In this document: positions 1 through 6,340 of the stretch, piece after piece
How the letters are laid out: each line of letters opens with the position of its first letter
Numbering within the stretch: position 1 is the first letter of the stretch
From: a virus
Taxonomy: Duplodnaviria; Caudoviricetes
DNA length: 64,000 bases
Reading direction: 5' to 3' (one strand)
Virus record (IMG/VR): IMGVR_UViG_3300002835_000006
The notes under the pieces: generated by a model
What the model saw: only the letters and a program-made list of their open reading frames with translations
Databases searched by the model: none
Told to the model about the DNA's origin: nothing
Translations under genes and position numbers: made by a program

Positions 1-554
1 GAATGGGGACTATGTCCTGGCTCGACCTCTGCTATTATTTATTCTGCCGATACTTATCCGGCGACTTTCATAGAAGGTCCAACAATCGAATCGGATTGTT
101 TTTCAGGTAATTCGTATACAATTTTGACGGGTTCAACACCTGTTTCTTTAAATTATTTTAACCCTTGTTGTGATGAATTGGTAACTCCTACACCTACACC
201 AACGAACACAGAAACTCCCACACCAACCGCTACGGAGGGTATAACTCCAACACCTACACCAACTGAAGAGATAACACCAACTCCAACACCAACTTGTCCG
301 TATGGAGATTGTTATCACTACGTTGAATTTACTATATCAGGTTACTCTGAAATTGATTGGGTATATTGTCCTGGCACTAGCTCAGGTCAGGTATATTCCG
401 CAGAAACGTATCCTGCAACATTTTTGTTAGGACCAGGTCTTGAGGTAGATTGTTTCTCAGGTAATTCATATACGGTTGTTTCGGGTTCAACTCCTTATTC
501 ATTAAATTATTTCAATCCTTGTTGTGAAGAGTTAGTAACTCCTACACCTACCCC
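1..554 (+). repeat. Diverged in-frame domain duplication, period 354 nt (118 aa)
   Basis: GSTP.SLNYFNPCC.ELVTPTP begins at 130 and again at 484; W..CPG...YSA.TYPATF..GP...DCFSGNSYT is also repeated. Confidence 0.85.
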
Positions 555-1713
555 ATCGCAAACCTCAACTCCTCAAGTGAGTCCAACTTGTACACCAACA
601 GAATCTGAGACACCAACTCCTACACCAGATGTCACTCCAACTTGTACACCAACAGAATCTGAGACACCAACTCCTACACCAGATGTCACTCCAACTTGCA
701 CACCAACAGAATCTGAGACACCAACTCCTACACCAGATGTCACTCCAACTTGCACACCAACAGAATCTGAGACACCAACTCCTACACCTTCTTGTACACC
801 AACTTTAACACCAACTTCAACACAGACTTGTTGTCAAATTACAATTTTGACCAATTCTTCAGTTGATGTGAACATAACTGATTTGACAGTAAATGGTAGT
901 TCAGCAACTTACGTTTCTGGTCAAGCATTACCAAATACTCCTGGTAATGGAACGATTTTGTGTTCGACAATCGTGGGCGTTGTTGATATAAGAATCTCGG
1001 TGTTAAATTCAGTTGCGGCTCAGAAGATTACTTTAACAGACAGTTTAGGTAATGTTCAGTGTTATGATATAACTGGAACTGGACCATCTAATTATGATTT
1101 CTTAGGTGTGACTTTGAATTGTACAACACCAATCACAGTATTGGCTGAGGATGGTTCATGTATCGCACCTCCAGAAACCCCGACACCAACACCAACAGCA
1201 GAAGTAACACCTACACCAACACCGACCGAAGAGGTGACTCCAACACCAACAATTACACCTTCACCCTCTGAAAGTCCACTACCTGTTTCAGGATTCTCTT
1301 ACAATTTGATTGCTTTACCATATAACTTGCCATCCGATGGAAATGCAATTATGAATAACGAACCTAATAATTTCGGAAGTACCGAAATAAACTTATTGGG
1401 TCTTTCATCACGAGGTTTTTATTTCAACTCTATAGACACAAGTTTAACTGATAGAACATCTTATTATTCAGCTTTTACAGGACAAACTATAACAATTACA
1501 TTTACTCAGAATGGTGACTCTGCAATATATTCAGGAGACACAGATTCTTTCAAATTTTGGTCAACTTCAGGAGATACAGGATTTGTGTTTGGTACAGGTA
1601 TAGGGGTACCTCCGATACCAGAACCCTCAGGAAATGCAGTACTGATACAATCTGCAACAACGACATGGGTCACAGGTGACACTGTTTATGTATCGGCGGT
1701 ATTGAACGTCTAA
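1..1713 (+). CDS. Pro/Thr-rich (mucin-like) Cys-containing putative virion/fibre protein, 5'-truncated by the window edge
   Basis: Frame 1 is open from base 1 (EWGLCPGSTS...), so the TTG at 124 is not the true start. It has a duplicated ~118-aa Cys-rich module, several (TP)n linkers and globular beta-rich segments. Confidence 0.75.
   Translation, partial: EWGLCPGSTSAIIYSADTYPATFIEGPTIESDCFSGNSYTILTGSTPVSLNYFNPCCDELVTPTPTPTNTETPTPTATEGITPTPTPTEEITPTPTPTCPYGDCYHYVEFTISGYSEIDWVYCPGTSSGQVYSAETYPATFLLGPGLEVDCFSGNSYTVVSGSTPYSLNYFNPCCEELVTPTPTPSQTSTPQVSPTCTPTESETPTPTPDVTPTCTPTESETPTPTPDVTPTCTPTESETPTPTPDVTPTCTPTESETPTPTPSCTPTLTPTSTQTCCQITILTNSSVDVNITDLTVNGSSATYVSGQALPNTPGNGTILCSTIVGVVDIRISVLNSVAAQKITLTDSLGNVQCYDITGTGPSNYDFLGVTLNCTTPITVLAEDGSCIAPPETPTPTPTAEVTPTPTPTEEVTPTPTITPSPSESPLPVSGFSYNLIALPYNLPSDGNAIMNNEPNNFGSTEINLLGLSSRGFYFNSIDTSLTDRTSYYSAFTGQTITITFTQNGDSAIYSGDTDSFKFWSTSGDTGFVFGTGIGVPPIPEPSGNAVLIQSATTTWVTGDTVYVSAVLNV
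583..788 (+). repeat. 54-nt tandem repeat (~3.8 copies) encoding [18 protein letters not shown]
   Basis: Near-identical units start at 583, 637, 691 and 745. Confidence 0.95.
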
Positions 1714-1736
1714 TTTTTACAATAAATCTTATTATC

Positions 1737-3797: not shown

Positions 3798-4674
3798 ATT
3801 TATAACAGCAATTTATAGTGATTTGAATGGAACAGAGTTGGGGGGTAGGCCTGCCAGAGGTACTCACTATAGGTTCAGTCTTCTATCTCTTTTAAAAATG
3901 ACTAATGCAGATTTTCTGTGTTATACTTCTGAAAGAGAGATAGAATCTTTGAAAGAGTTTTTTTATAAAGAAAACAATATATCAGAAAACAAATTAAAAT
4001 TTGAAATATTTGATTTGACTAATTCCAAATTCAAAGATTTAATAAATCTTAGAAAAAATGTGGAGGACATAAAGAGAGGTGATAGATGTATTGAAATTCA
4101 ATACTCTAAATTTTCTTGGTGGTGGAACGAAGATAAATCATACGATTATTATTATTGGATAGACGCCGGATTATCACATTGTGGTTTGATACCATTGAAG
4201 TATTTGAATTTTCCTCATGGTATGAGAAGATTTTATGAGAGTACGTTGTTTAACAATTCTTTTTCAGAAAATTTAATAATCGACACAAGTGATAAATTTT
4301 TAATATTAGGGAAAGAGAATGAAAGGAATTATTGGTCTGGAACCGTGGACCAAAAATGGTATACCAACTATATAAGACAAATTCATATTATTGGTGGTTT
4401 GTTCGGTGGTCATAGAGATAGATGGGATAACATGGTTAGTACATTCGAAGATTATGTTGTAAAAATCTTGTCGGATGATTCTTGTAAGTTTTTACCTCAT
4501 GAAGAACAAATAATGACTTTAATGTTTTATAACCACAACGATTTGTTTGTTAGGAAACATTTTGATATTTGGTGGTGTAGGGATAACGCACCACAAGGGA
4601 CTAGTGAAGAACTATTTCTGAAAAATAAAAGTTTTTATAAAATCTTAGAGGAATTTAATAGAATATATGAATAA
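3787..4674 (+). CDS. HtrL/WlaTC-like glycosyltransferase
   Basis: FITAIY, YYWIDAGL, IIGGLFGG and EEQIM motifs parallel those in the next gene. Confidence 0.6.
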   Translation: MRIKFITAIYSDLNGTELGGRPARGTHYRFSLLSLLKMTNADFLCYTSEREIESLKEFFYKENNISENKLKFEIFDLTNSKFKDLINLRKNVEDIKRGDRCIEIQYSKFSWWWNEDKSYDYYYWIDAGLSHCGLIPLKYLNFPHGMRRFYESTLFNNSFSENLIIDTSDKFLILGKENERNYWSGTVDQKWYTNYIRQIHIIGGLFGGHRDRWDNMVSTFEDYVVKILSDDSCKFLPHEEQIMTLMFYNHNDLFVRKHFDIWWCRDNAPQGTSEELFLKNKSFYKILEEFNRIYE

Positions 4675-6340
4675 CATTACTTTAGTAACGGGTATTTGGG
4701 ACATCGGGAGGTCTGAATTAAATGAGGGTTGGAAACGACCCTATGAACATTATTTGGAAAAATTTGATTCTCTTTTGGATGCGTCTGAAAATATGATTAT
4801 TTTCGGGGATGAGTCTTTAGAAGAATTTGTTTTTAGAAAAAGGAATAAGGAGAATACTCAATTTATTAGAAGACCAATATCTTGGTTCAGAGAAAATGAG
4901 TTTTTTGAAAAAATACAACTGATAAGAAACAATGAAGATTGGAAAAATCTTGCGGGGTGGCTTAGAGACTCAACTCAATCGAAATTAGAAAACTATAATC
5001 CTTTAGTCATGTCCAAAGTTTTTCTACTTCATGATGCCAAGATTATGGACCAATTTAATTCGGAATATATGTTTTGGATTGACGGAGGTATTACAAACAC
5101 CGTGCACTCCGGATATTTCACACACGACAAGGTTTTAAATAATCTTCCTAAATACATCTCAAAGTTTTCTTTTATTTGTTTTCCATATGAGGCAAATAAT
5201 GAAATTCATGGATTTGAGTATTCAAGATTAAATGAGATTGCCGGTACTAAAGTAGACAAAGTTGCAAGAGGAGGATTCTTTGGTGGACCAAAGTATACTA
5301 TACCAGAAATAAATTCAATTTATTATGGTTTATTGAAATCTACATTAGACCAAGGGTTGATGGGTACCGAAGAATCTATTTTTAGTATAATGTGTTATAA
5401 ACACTCAGATTTAATAAATTATTTTGAGATAGAAGGTAACGGTCTCATAGGTAAATTTTTTGAGGGTTTGAAAAATAACAATTTAGAAGTAAAATCTGAG
5501 AGCGGATTTGTCTCACAGGAAATGTTAGATACAAATAAAGTTGGTTTATATGTTATAACATTTAACAGTCCAGAACAATTTGAAACTCTGATACAATCGA
5601 TGAATTCTTATGATAAAGATTTTTTATTAAAAACTAAAAAATTTCTTTTAAATAATTCTACAGACAGGACAACAGATTTAACTTATAGTCAATTATGTGA
5701 TGATTATGGTTTCGAAGAAATAAAAAAGGATAATTTAGGTATCTGCGGTGGAAGACAGTGGATTGCAGAACATTTTGACACAGAAACGGATTTAGATTAT
5801 TACCTTTTCTTTGAGGACGATATGTTCTTCTATCCGAATCAAGAGGTTTGTAAAAATGGTTTCAACAGATTCACAGATAATCTTTATTCAAAATCTTTAG
5901 AAATTGTTAAAAAAGAAAATTTTGATTTTTTAAAATTAAATTTTTCAGAGTTTTTTGGTGATAATAGTACTCAATGGTCTTGGTATAATGTCCCTCAAGA
6001 TGTAAGATTAAAGTTTTGGCCTGAAAAACCCCGACTCCCAAACATGGGATTAGACCCAAATGCCCCAAAAACAAAATTCACCAAAATAGATTCCCACAAA
6101 GGTATACCATATGCAACAGGTGAAATATACTATTGTAATTGGCCACAAATAGTCTCAAGGCCCGGTAATAAAAAGATGTTTTTAGAAACAACTTGGGCTC
6201 ACCCATTTGAACAAACGTGGATGAGTCATATGTATCAGCAGACTGTTGCGGGCAAACTCAAACCAGGGTTACTTCTTATGACACCAACCGAACATAATAG
6301 GTTCGACCATTACGATAGGAAGTTACGTAAAGAGTCATAA
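4667..6340 (+). CDS. Two-domain glycosyltransferase: HtrL/WlaTC-like N-domain plus GT-A (GT2-like) C-domain
   Basis: N-half: LVTGIWDIGR, FWIDGG, GGFFGG, TEESIF. C-half: LYVITFNS, LNNS, NLGICGGR, FFEDD. Confidence 0.7.
   Translation: MNNITLVTGIWDIGRSELNEGWKRPYEHYLEKFDSLLDASENMIIFGDESLEEFVFRKRNKENTQFIRRPISWFRENEFFEKIQLIRNNEDWKNLAGWLRDSTQSKLENYNPLVMSKVFLLHDAKIMDQFNSEYMFWIDGGITNTVHSGYFTHDKVLNNLPKYISKFSFICFPYEANNEIHGFEYSRLNEIAGTKVDKVARGGFFGGPKYTIPEINSIYYGLLKSTLDQGLMGTEESIFSIMCYKHSDLINYFEIEGNGLIGKFFEGLKNNNLEVKSESGFVSQEMLDTNKVGLYVITFNSPEQFETLIQSMNSYDKDFLLKTKKFLLNNSTDRTTDLTYSQLCDDYGFEEIKKDNLGICGGRQWIAEHFDTETDLDYYLFFEDDMFFYPNQEVCKNGFNRFTDNLYSKSLEIVKKENFDFLKLNFSEFFGDNSTQWSWYNVPQDVRLKFWPEKPRLPNMGLDPNAPKTKFTKIDSHKGIPYATGEIYYCNWPQIVSRPGNKKMFLETTWAHPFEQTWMSHMYQQTVAGKLKPGLLLMTPTEHNRFDHYDRKLRKES

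What the first reader, a model, noticed from the sequence alone, without database searches (positions are those of the whole stretch)
1..6340. Candidate phage-encoded mucin-type O-glycosylation system for virion proteins
Seen: a gene with long (Thr-Pro)n tracts is followed directly by four coupled glycosyltransferase genes (GT60-like, GT25-like, HtrL-like, HtrL+GT-A). A second TP-tract gene and an (S-G-T)n fibre lie at 62.7-64 kb. Known: GT60 enzymes initiate O-alpha-GlcNAc glycans on protein. Dictyostelium Gnt1 acts on Skp1 hydroxyproline, and Dictyostelium Gnt2 and Trypanosoma cruzi TcOGNT act on Thr of mucin-like peptides. GT25 enzymes are chain-extending galactosyltransferases. Inference: an initiating enzyme, extending enzymes and mucin-like acceptors are all present. 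This suggests the phage coats its fibres or capsid decorations with its own O-glycans in the cytoplasm, for shielding, stiffening linkers, adhesion or host mimicry.
Basis: partly seen in the sequence, partly recalled or inferred. Interest (0 to 1): 0.92.

Follow-up and report, generated by a model that had tools for sequence, protein, structure and literature searches.

The report
Phage sugar-coating genes beside Thr-Pro proteins
A large freshwater phage carries a conserved four-gene sugar-transferase cluster led by an enzyme of the family that starts mucin-type sugar chains in protists. That enzyme sits next to Thr-Pro-repeat proteins in many phages and bacteria, so the phage probably sugar-coats its own tail-fibre-type proteins, though no sugar has been measured.

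Summary
Window 1-1713 encodes a protein (5' end cut off) with (Thr-Pro)n tracts. Four overlapping genes follow:
- a GT60 gene (PF11397, E 7e-67);
- a GT25 gene (E 3e-11);
- a 295-aa HtrL-related gene;
- a 557-aa enzyme that models as two GT-A domains.

A second TP-tract gene and a collagen-like (Gly-Thr-Ser)n gene lie at 62.7-64 kb.

The GT60 model (pLDDT 94.7) is closest to Dictyostelium Gnt1, then to mucin-initiating ppGalNAc-transferases.

New evidence ties GT60 to TP tracts:
- 10 of 68 viral contigs chosen only for a (TP)6 tract carry GT60, against 1 of 76 controls.
- In lineages with 37-41% GT60 identity the gene sits inside the fibre module, next to a TP protein.
- 13 of 80 bacterial GT60 loci hold a (TP)5 tract, where about 0.4 is expected. 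Three of these tracts are the C-terminal tails of type VI secretion (T6SS) VgrG spike proteins.

The related phage XacN1 has the orthologous cluster, and stained virion glycoproteins have been published for it.

DNA modification is unlikely. No glycan, acceptor or virion location has been shown for this phage.

The scan noted this idea before on other genomes. I rate it a new variant of a known kind, interest about 0.7.

The parts
1..1713 (+). Modular Cys-containing protein, cut off at its 5' end, with five blocks of (Thr-Pro)n linkers. It is the candidate glycan acceptor.
   Evidence: The full-length orthologue in L004 is 1371 aa. No Pfam or NCBIfam family was found.
1789..3054 (+). GT60-family polypeptide HexNAc-transferase-like enzyme, the predicted initiating enzyme. 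It has a catalytic GT-A domain (residues 1 to about 312) and a C-terminal beta-rich domain of about 100 aa.
   Evidence: PF11397 at E 7e-67. AF2 model pLDDT 94.7. Best Swiss-Prot fold match is Dictyostelium Gnt1, TM 0.65. The top 42 PDB matches are ppGalNAc-transferases. The D93-S94-H95 motif is nearly invariant and H230 is invariant. No transmembrane segment.
3054..3797 (+). GT25-family glycosyltransferase, a predicted chain-extending enzyme. It belongs to the variable middle of the cluster.
   Evidence: PF01755 at E 3.4e-11. The weak best PDB sequence hits are collagen galactosyltransferase COLGALT1. It is only 50-94% conserved, and other enzymes replace it in some relatives.
3787..4674 (+). 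295-aa protein distantly related to the HtrL-like domain. It is a probable glycosyltransferase in the variable middle of the cluster.
   Evidence: No Pfam hit. hhalign gives 84% probability to the N-terminal domain of the 557-aa protein (O5) over 51 columns. It is 28% identical to XacN1 ORF332 in the orthologous cluster.
4667..6340 (+). 557-aa enzyme with two GT-A domains (an HtrL_YibB-like N-terminal half and a GT-A C-terminal half with an E-D-D motif). It forms the conserved end of the cluster.
   Evidence: PF09612 at E 1.9e-20. AF2 model pLDDT 78. Foldseek best hits are two-domain transferases: LH3, LARGE1, K4CP, COLGALT1 and mimivirus R699. It is 42-44% identical to XacN1 and Xoo-sp13 proteins.
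6357..6734 (+). 125-aa protein of unknown family, always found between the cluster and PolB. In relative L257 the same domain is the N-terminus of a 413-aa protein that follows GT60 directly and carries Thr-rich and (PT)n tracts.
57206..62647 (+). Fibre or baseplate-distal module: a 989-aa protein, a 712-aa SprB-repeat protein and a 110-aa protein. In diverged relatives the GT60 gene lies directly after this module.
   Evidence: tblastn synteny to L250, L258 and L259. SprB repeats PF13573 at E 1e-24. It lies downstream of the baseplate wedge gene at 45931-47769.
62738..63622 (+). Second TP-tract protein (294 aa, 23% Thr, 12% Pro). It is a candidate acceptor.
63666..64000 (+). Collagen-like (Gly-Thr-Ser / Gly-Asn-Ser)n fibre protein, cut off at its 3' end. 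It is a possible further acceptor.
   Evidence: In L259 its homologue lies directly upstream of GT60 and hits PF01391 Collagen at E 5e-9.

Best explanation
The cluster is a phage-encoded, cytoplasmic protein O-glycosylation pathway.

The soluble GT60-type enzyme (1789-3054) puts a first HexNAc, probably alpha-GlcNAc from UDP-GlcNAc, on Thr, or possibly hydroxy-Pro, in the (Thr-Pro)n tracts of the phage's own modular fibre-type proteins. These are 1-1713, 62738-63622, and perhaps the collagen-like fibre at 63666 onwards. The GT25 enzyme, the 295-aa enzyme and the two-domain 557-aa enzyme then extend the chain. The middle enzymes are swapped between related phages, so related phages would differ in glycan structure. 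The modified proteins are then built into the tail or baseplate periphery.

Shown here: the gene families, the fold, the lack of membrane segments, the conserved synteny, and the statistical coupling of GT60 to TP tracts.

Inferred: the acceptor, the sugar, the order of the steps, the virion location, and the benefit (linker stiffening, protease protection, shielding or adhesion).
For: 1. Family and fold. PF11397 matches at 226.8 bits. The best fold match is the founding GT60 enzyme Gnt1, followed only by mucin-initiating ppGalNAc-transferases. The DxH motif and the downstream His are conserved.

2. Conserved synteny. The order GT60, variable cassette, O5, O6, PolB holds in 80 of 80 related IMG/VR loci, and TP ORFs lie just upstream in most of them.

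3. Reverse test. Of 68 viral contigs picked only for a (TP)6 DNA tract, 10 carry PF11397. Of 76 contigs picked by a random 14-mer, 1 does (Fisher p = 0.003). The ten GT60 proteins are 82% down to 26% identical to this one. In 6 of the 10 a TP ORF lies within 34-840 bp on the same strand.

4. Different gene order, same neighbours. At 37-41% identity (L250, L258, L259) GT60 sits inside the homologue of the window's 52.6-64 kb fibre module, between the collagen-like gene and a TP protein.

5. Bacteria. 13 of 80 GT60 loci hold a (TP)5 tract, against about 0.4 expected. In Achromobacter, Paraherbaspirillum and Congregibacter the only such tract in the genome lies 2.6-4 kb from GT60. In Ralstonia it is one of two such tracts.

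6. Published staining. XacN1 carries the orthologous cluster, has about 17 TP-tract ORFs and has PAS-positive virion protein bands (PMC5852040).

7. All four enzymes lack hydrophobic segments.

8. The cassette in relatives holds GT10-like fucosyltransferases and methyltransferases, as expected for a diversified exposed glycan.
Against: - No glycan has been measured on any protein of this phage lineage.
- The glycoprotein bands in XacN1 were not identified.
- TP tracts are common flexible linkers. 58 of 68 TP-tract viral contigs had no GT60 on the contig, and 60 of 80 bacterial GT60 loci had no TP ORF within 8 kb.
- The TP proteins match no known virion family, so their place in the virion rests on synteny alone.
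- GT25 and HtrL genes are best known from LPS core loci.
- Relatedness among the sampled contigs was not corrected for, so the p-values overstate independence.
- Within the complete relative G001 the clustering is weak: 2 of 6 TP ORFs lie near GT60, about p = 0.05.
Confidence: 0.6

Rival explanations
1. GT60 glycosylates some other protein target, a host protein or a single site on a phage protein as Gnt1 does on Skp1. The TP tracts would then be plain linkers that lie nearby only because both sit in or beside the fibre module.
For: The founding member Gnt1 has one specific substrate (PMC6939170). Most TP-tract contigs lack GT60 and most bacterial GT60 loci lack a TP tract. In L127, GT60 genes sit beside PqqD- and ScmC-type genes, a peptide-modification setting without TP tracts.
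Against: The coupling persists across different gene orders and in bacteria, where the shared feature is the TP tract itself rather than a fibre module. VgrG tails are the example.
Confidence: 0.15
2. The cluster remodels a host envelope glycan (LPS core, O-antigen or capsule) during infection, for example to block superinfection. The GT25 and HtrL-like enzymes would act on lipid-linked sugars.
For: GT25 (PF01755) is described as an LPS biosynthesis family and HtrL/YibB lies in the E. coli LPS core locus (family descriptions). A jumbo-phage review reads phage glycosyltransferase clusters this way (PMC7824862).
Against: There is no initiating phosphoglycosyl transferase, flippase, polymerase or membrane segment in or beside the cluster. 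The conserved lead enzyme belongs to a family whose characterised members, as far as I know, act on polypeptides. The same cluster occurs in phages of very different hosts, Xanthomonas and probably Bacteroidota.
Confidence: 0.1
3. The enzymes make a free or small-molecule-linked oligosaccharide, or they act on different targets and do not form one pathway.
For: Only GT60 shows the TP-tract coupling. In L258 and L257, GT60 stands next to a TP protein without the other three enzymes.
Against: The four genes overlap and GT60 plus O5 stay linked down to 41-48% identity in marine and Xanthomonas relatives.
Confidence: 0.08
4. The enzymes glycosylate hypermodified bases in the phage DNA. The cluster lies beside the DNA polymerase gene.
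For: The cluster neighbours PolB here and lies about 5 kb from the DNA polymerase gene in XacN1 and Xoo-sp13. Virus glycosyltransferases that modify DNA are well known.
Against: Three complete relatives and both Xanthomonas phages have only a thymidylate synthase that passes the TIGR03284 equivalog cut-off (303 bits), and no Tet/JBP match. The Tet/JBP search had no positive control. So no route to a hydroxymethyl pyrimidine acceptor was found. The GT60 fold neighbours are all polypeptide transferases.
Confidence: 0.03

Closest known systems
CAZy GT60 / Pfam PF11397: Dictyostelium and Toxoplasma Gnt1 (Skp1 hydroxyproline alpha-GlcNAc-transferase) and the protist polypeptide alpha-GlcNAc-transferases (T. 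cruzi OGNT, Dictyostelium Gnt2)
   Same: The sequence family matches and the fold matches Gnt1 at TM 0.65 with 25% identity. The DxH metal motif is present. Like Gnt1 the enzyme is soluble and cytoplasmic. Ser/Thr/Pro-rich acceptors are the known targets of the mucin-type members (PMC8724618).
   Different: This enzyme is encoded by a phage or by bacteria, not a protist. It has an extra C-terminal beta domain of about 100 aa, which lies outside the part of the model that matches Gnt1 (residues 2-312). Its activity, donor and acceptor are untested.
Animal GT27 polypeptide GalNAc-transferases (mucin-type O-glycan initiation)
   Same: They are the nearest solved structures: the top 42 PDB hits, with E down to 3e-11. 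They share a two-part layout, a catalytic GT-A domain plus a C-terminal beta domain. Their acceptors are tandem Thr/Pro-rich repeats.
   Different: Sequence identity is only 10-15%. The GT27 enzymes are Golgi type II membrane proteins, while this one is soluble. The C-terminal domain here is about 90 aa. I did not test whether it is a ricin-type lectin domain.
Phage-encoded virion glycosylation in mycobacteriophages (Freeman et al. 2023, cited in PMC12619734) and the proposal for Xanthomonas phage XacN1 (PMC5852040)
   Same: The phage's own glycosyltransferases modify its own structural proteins before assembly. XacN1 carries the orthologous cluster (GT60 46% identical, O5 44% identical) and shows PAS-positive virion bands.
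   Different: In mycobacteriophages the glycans sit on the C-termini of capsid and tail-tube subunits. That paper was not read here, so whether its enzymes belong to other families is unchecked. For XacN1 neither the acceptor proteins nor the responsible enzyme were identified, and the TP-tract link was not made.
Giant-virus glycosylation machinery (chlorovirus capsid glycans, mimivirus fibre glycans, mimivirus R699)
   Same: The virus encodes a multi-enzyme cytoplasmic glycosylation pathway for surface structures. The O5 model resembles the two-domain mimivirus R699 among other structures.
   Different: The hosts are eukaryotes and the enzymes and linkages differ. This report found no GT60-plus-TP-tract pairing described for those viruses in the papers read.

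Membership tests
CAZy GT60 / Pfam PF11397 (GlcNAc) | Sequence match to the family profile above the curated cut-off | tested here: met
   226.8 bits against a cut-off of 21, E 7.2e-67, two stretches covering the profile to position 350 of 352. Also phrog_24687 at E 8.5e-165.
CAZy GT60 / Pfam PF11397 (GlcNAc) | GT-A fold closest to a characterised member, with a DxH metal motif and a downstream His | tested here: met
   AF2 model pLDDT 94.7, pTM 0.89. Gnt1 Q8T1C6 is the best Swiss-Prot match at E 1.9e-24, TM 0.65. D93, S94 and H95 are at least 90% conserved and H230 is invariant across 44 homologues.
CAZy GT60 / Pfam PF11397 (GlcNAc) | Transfers alpha-GlcNAc from UDP-GlcNAc to Thr or hydroxy-Pro of a polypeptide | not testable with these tools
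   Needs an enzyme assay. There is only genetic coupling to TP-tract genes.
CAZy GT60 / Pfam PF11397 (GlcNAc) | [quoted passage not shown] | tested here: inconclusive
   A beta-rich domain at about residues 325-415 is present and conserved in phage and bacterial homologues. Its fold class was not determined.
CAZy GT25 / Pfam PF01755 | Profile match above the cut-off, with an acidic DxD-type motif | tested here: met
   43.8 bits against a cut-off of 24. The best stretch covers residues 46-106 only. An 'EDD' motif is visible in the sequence. The weak PDB sequence hits are to COLGALT1, E 0.03.
HtrL/YibB (Pfam PF09612; NCBIfam TIGR02192) | Profile match, and equivalence to E. coli YibB | tested here: inconclusive
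   The N-terminal half of the 557-aa protein passes Pfam (74 bits against 24.1). It fails the NCBIfam equivalog cut-off (78 against 264.9), so it is a family member but not a YibB orthologue. The 295-aa protein has no Pfam hit and only 84% hhalign probability over 51 columns.
Phage-encoded virion protein glycosylation | Glycan demonstrated on virion proteins and dependent on phage glycosyltransferases | not testable with these tools
   The only data are published PAS staining of at least two XacN1 virion bands, whose identity and enzyme dependence are unknown (PMC5852040).
Phage DNA glycosylation (T4-type and related) | A pathway that makes a hydroxymethyl-pyrimidine acceptor (dCMP/dUMP hydroxymethylase or Tet/JBP) | tested here: not met
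   In G001-G003, XacN1 and Xoo-sp13 the only thymidylate-synthase-family gene passes the thymidylate synthase equivalog model (302.8 bits against 108). No PF12851 match was found, but that search had no positive control.
Lipid-carrier polysaccharide / LPS pathway | Membrane-associated initiating transferase, flippase or polymerase in the locus | tested here: not met
   None were found among the ORFs at 1-9628. The maximum 19-residue hydropathy of the four enzymes is 1.01 or less.

The most novel reading that the evidence does not exclude
GT60 plus (Thr-Pro)n may be a general prokaryotic 'mucin code' for contractile injection machines. Phage fibre proteins and the C-terminal TP tails of T6SS VgrG spikes would be O-HexNAc-ylated in the cytoplasm by this family. 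The two-domain 557-aa enzyme would act like LARGE1 or chondroitin polymerase and build a repeating polymer on that primer, giving proteoglycan-like phage fibres.
Probability: 0.15. Interest if true: 0.88.

Novelty: new variant of a known kind. Interest (0 to 1): 0.72.

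Why it matters
Phage virion glycosylation has been demonstrated in only a few cases. Mucin-type initiation by GT60 enzymes is regarded as a protist trait (PMC8724618).

This window shows that the family is abundant in aquatic jumbo phages: more than 6,600 close homologues in metagenomes and 4,560 cluster representatives. 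The family is also genetically tied to Thr-Pro tracts in both phages and bacteria.

If confirmed, this gives three things:
- a sequence-readable marker, GT60 plus TP tracts, for glycosylated phage fibres;
- an explanation for the PAS-positive proteins of XacN1;
- a possible new modification of T6SS spikes.

It is directly testable with cultured relatives (XacN1, Xoo-sp13, CM1, RAS14) and with simple recombinant assays. A glycan coat that differs between related phages would matter for host range, for how long particles persist in water, and for engineering phage surfaces.

Tried and rejected
- **Close DNA matches.** Megablast of 1-8000 against cultured phages found nothing.
- **Solved structures by sequence.** GT60 and O5 gave no useful hit.
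- **Families for the TP proteins and module neighbours.** Pfam, PHROGs and NCBIfam gave none. An Atlas feature search of the C-terminal domain of the 1-1713 protein gave only unnamed viral clusters below the useful score.
- **DNA-modification reading.** Rejected after the thymidylate synthase and Tet/JBP searches.
- **Prolyl-hydroxylase route (Hyp acceptor).** The relatives G001-G003 each have three PF13640 oxygenase genes, but XacN1 and Xoo-sp13 have none. The window ORF 41306-41830 matches only the non-catalytic part of one of them and has no Pfam hit. This enzyme is therefore not a conserved partner of the cluster.
- **Context look-ups of diverse representatives.** These mostly returned contigs too short to judge.
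- **XacN1 virion proteome.** The list is in a figure that is not held as text, so I could not check whether TP proteins were detected.
- **'Moraphage' lineage.** Its paper reports four core glycosyltransferase groups (PMC12619734). I could not establish whether that lineage is this one.
- **Complex prediction.** None was run, because enzyme-substrate pairs are outside what that test resolves.

Full report
**1. What the window is**

The 64-kb window comes from a low-GC (about 35%) contractile-tailed phage. It encodes a tail sheath (17034-20231), a baseplate wedge protein (45931-47769), DnaB, UvsX, a ribonucleotide reductase and a family B DNA polymerase.

No cultured phage matches it at the DNA level. 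It is collinear, in reverse orientation, with complete IMG/VR genomes of 317-326 kb, one of which has terminal repeats. It therefore belongs to an abundant clade of aquatic jumbo phages.

A 712-aa protein with SprB repeats (60175-62313) suggests a Bacteroidota host, as do 68-70% GT60 matches on contigs binned with Saprospiraceae. This was not established.

**2.

ORF 1-1713 is 20% Thr and 13% Pro. Its TP tracts are encoded by tandem DNA repeats, one of them a 54-nt unit at 99% identity.

Four overlapping genes follow. Their family assignments are:
- 1789-3054: PF11397 (CAZy GT60), E 7e-67.
- 3054-3797: PF01755 (GT25), E 3e-11.
- 3787-4674: no Pfam family, but an hhalign link (84%, 51 columns) to the HtrL-like domain of the next protein.
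- 4667-6340: PF09612 (HtrL_YibB) on residues 3-255, plus a second domain with an invariant E-D-D motif.

The AF2 model of the 557-aa protein (pLDDT 78) has two GT-A domains. Its best PDB matches are two-domain transferases: LH3, LARGE1, chondroitin polymerase K4CP, COLGALT1 and mimivirus R699.

None of the four enzymes has a hydrophobic segment.

The second TP gene (62738-63622) and the repeat gene at 63666 onwards are present. The latter is a Gly-X-Y collagen-like repeat.

**3. The lead enzyme models as GT60**

I modelled it with a 44-sequence alignment and obtained pLDDT 94.7 and pTM 0.89.

The best match among reviewed UniProt models is Dictyostelium Gnt1, the Skp1 hydroxyproline GlcNAc-transferase (E 2e-24, TM 0.65). 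The next 29 matches are all polypeptide GalNAc-transferases. The top 42 PDB matches are also ppGalNAc-transferases.

The D-S-H motif and a downstream His are conserved. A C-terminal beta-rich domain of about 100 aa is extra relative to the part that matches Gnt1.

Reviews state that GT60 enzymes start mucin-type glycans with GlcNAc in protists and modify Skp1 (PMC8724618, PMC6939170).

**4. Conservation of the cluster**

All 80 fetched IMG/VR relatives (83-93% GT60 identity; 368 were found) keep the order GT60, middle genes, O5, O6, PolB.

The middle is a swap zone. In some relatives GT25 and the 295-aa gene are replaced by three to seven other genes, including GT10-type fucosyltransferase homologues, methyltransferases and a GT2-like enzyme. 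A marine relative has two GT60 genes, then a methyltransferase, a sulfotransferase-like gene and an HtrL-like gene. This pattern is what a diversified, exposed glycan would produce.

The cultured Xanthomonas phages XacN1 and Xoo-sp13 carry the orthologous cluster with an added carbamoyltransferase. Their identities are 46-49% for GT60, 42-44% for O5 and 28% for O4.

**5. Tests of the link between GT60 and TP tracts**

(a) *Within the clade.* TP ORFs lie just upstream of GT60 in most loci and never downstream within the fetched flank. This is one inherited arrangement. In the complete genome G001 only 2 of 6 TP ORFs are near GT60.

(b) *Reverse sampling.* I sampled IMG/VR contigs by a (TP)6 DNA pattern alone. 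Of the records that could be searched, 10 of 68 carry PF11397. Of contigs sampled by an arbitrary 14-mer, 1 of 76 does (Fisher p = 0.003). For contigs of at least 30 kb the counts are 9 of 36 against 1 of 27, p = 0.03.

(c) *How diverged the positives are.* The ten GT60 proteins are 82, 66, 62, 60, 41, 38, 37, 34, 31 and 26% identical to the window's. In six of the ten a TP ORF lies 34-840 bp from GT60 on the same strand.

(d) *A different gene order.* In L250, L258 and L259 (37-41% identity) the neighbourhood is different. GT60 sits inside the homologue of the window's 52.6-64 kb module. The order there is o583, o266, o363, o302, o989, the SprB-repeat protein, o110, the collagen-like gene (seen in L259), GT60, an optional 265-aa gene, and then a TP protein. 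In L257 the gene right after GT60 encodes an O6-like domain fused to Thr-rich and (PT)n tracts. The pairing therefore survived rearrangement.

(e) *Bacteria.* A scan of one genome per species found at least 558 relatives. Of the best 80 loci, 20 have a strict TP ORF within 8 kb. Thirteen hold a (TP)5 DNA tract, where about 0.4 is expected from a deliberately high background (Poisson p about 7e-16, not corrected for relatedness).

Whole-genome counts show how rare such tracts are:
- Achromobacter: 1 locus, 4 kb from GT60.
- Paraherbaspirillum: 1 locus, 2.6 kb from GT60.
- Congregibacter: 1 locus, 2.9 kb from GT60.
- Ralstonia sp. 25C: 2 loci, one of them 1.2 kb from GT60.
- An Acidimicrobiaceae MAG: 4 loci, two of them flanking GT60.

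In the three Burkholderiales genomes the TP tract is the C-terminal tail of a VgrG spike. In Ralstonia this lies within a T6SS cluster containing TssG, TssA and TagF. Other TP neighbours carry a crAss muzzle domain, BNR/fn3 domains or a LamG domain.

**6. Experimental anchor**

Yoshikawa et al. reported at least two periodic-acid-Schiff-positive protein bands in XacN1 virions. They suggested that the phage's two glycosyltransferases, one of which is the GT60 homologue ORF334, produce them (PMC5852040). The bands were not identified.

I find about 17 large XacN1 ORFs with TPTPTP tracts. One is the 3315-aa protein beside the baseplate wedge gene, a few kb from the cluster.

**7. Rivals**

*DNA glycosylation* is unlikely. 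Complete relatives and both Xanthomonas phages have only a bona fide thymidylate synthase. No Tet/JBP match was found, though that search lacked a positive control.

*Host LPS or capsule remodelling* is not excluded for the downstream enzymes. However, the locus has no lipid-carrier machinery or membrane proteins, and the lead enzyme's family and neighbours point to polypeptides.

*A different protein target, with TP tracts as bystander linkers,* remains the main rival. Most TP contigs lack GT60 and most bacterial GT60 loci lack TP tracts.

**8. Verdict**

The best-supported reading is a phage-encoded cytoplasmic O-glycosylation system. It would be initiated by a GT60-type enzyme on TP tracts of fibre-module proteins and extended by a variable set of enzymes (confidence about 0.6).

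Shown: families, fold, solubility, synteny and statistical coupling. Inferred: acceptor, sugar, pathway order, virion location and benefit.

Phage-encoded virion glycosylation is known, and it was proposed for XacN1. The GT60-TP pairing and its reach into T6SS spikes did not turn up in the literature I could search.

Earlier notes of this scan reached the same idea on other genomes. I tested that claim independently here.

Noticed in passing
L435:7950-13131 (Ralstonia sp. 25C chromosome); also L422 and L401: A GT60 homologue (PF11397, E 4e-78) lies inside a T6SS cluster (TssG, TssA/ImpA, TagF). About 1 kb away is a VgrG spike whose C-terminus is a (Thr-Pro) tract of about 55 repeats. Achromobacter and Paraherbaspirillum have the same VgrG-(TP)n neighbour. 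This suggests glycosylated T6SS spikes.
   Followed up: partly
window 63666-64000: The '(S-G-T)n fibre' is a Gly-X-Y collagen-like repeat (36-nt unit, 5 copies, 96% identity). In L259 its homologue (PF01391, E 5e-9) sits directly upstream of GT60, so it may be a further acceptor.
   Followed up: partly
window 60175-62313: A 712-aa protein with SprB repeats (PF13573, E 1e-24), a domain typical of Bacteroidota gliding adhesins. Together with 68-70% GT60 matches on Saprospiraceae-binned contigs (L377-L382), this hints at a Bacteroidota host.
   Followed up: no
window 6357-6734; L257:1587-2825: In a relative, the 125-aa protein after the cluster is the N-terminal domain of a 413-aa protein that carries Thr-rich and (PT)16 tracts and follows GT60 directly. 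The window copy ends exactly where that tract begins.
   Followed up: partly
L034, L037, L045, L063, L076, L077, L080, L082 (between GT60 and O5): The middle of the cluster is a swap zone of three to seven genes. It includes GT10-type fucosyltransferase homologues, SAM methyltransferases and a GT2-like enzyme. In L045 and L076 a methyltransferase domain is fused to the front of O5.
   Followed up: partly
L001 and L002 (Xoo-sp13, XacN1): The orthologous cluster there has a 765-aa carbamoyltransferase between GT60 and the O4 homologue, which suggests a carbamoylated sugar.
   Followed up: no
L127:14-3117: Two GT60 genes flank PqqD-like and ScmC-like genes, a setting typical of peptide natural-product modification, with homologues of O4 and O5 on the other strand.
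   Followed up: no
G001:28772-29065, 152970-153233, 162023-162214: The complete relatives each encode three 2OG-Fe(II) oxygenases of the prolyl-hydroxylase-type family PF13640. XacN1 and Xoo-sp13 have none. The window ORF 41306-41830 matches only the non-catalytic part of one of them.
   Followed up: partly
L003:8033-9403, L040, L053, L071 (between O6 and PolB): Several relatives have an extra 0.6-1.4 kb between the 125-aa gene and PolB that the window lacks. It may be a mobile insert.
   Followed up: no
L125 (marine TARA contig): Gene order: GT60, GT60, methyltransferase, sulfotransferase-like, HtrL-like 568-aa gene. The GT60-O5 link therefore extends to marine relatives at 41-48% identity and may involve sulfated sugars.
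   Followed up: no
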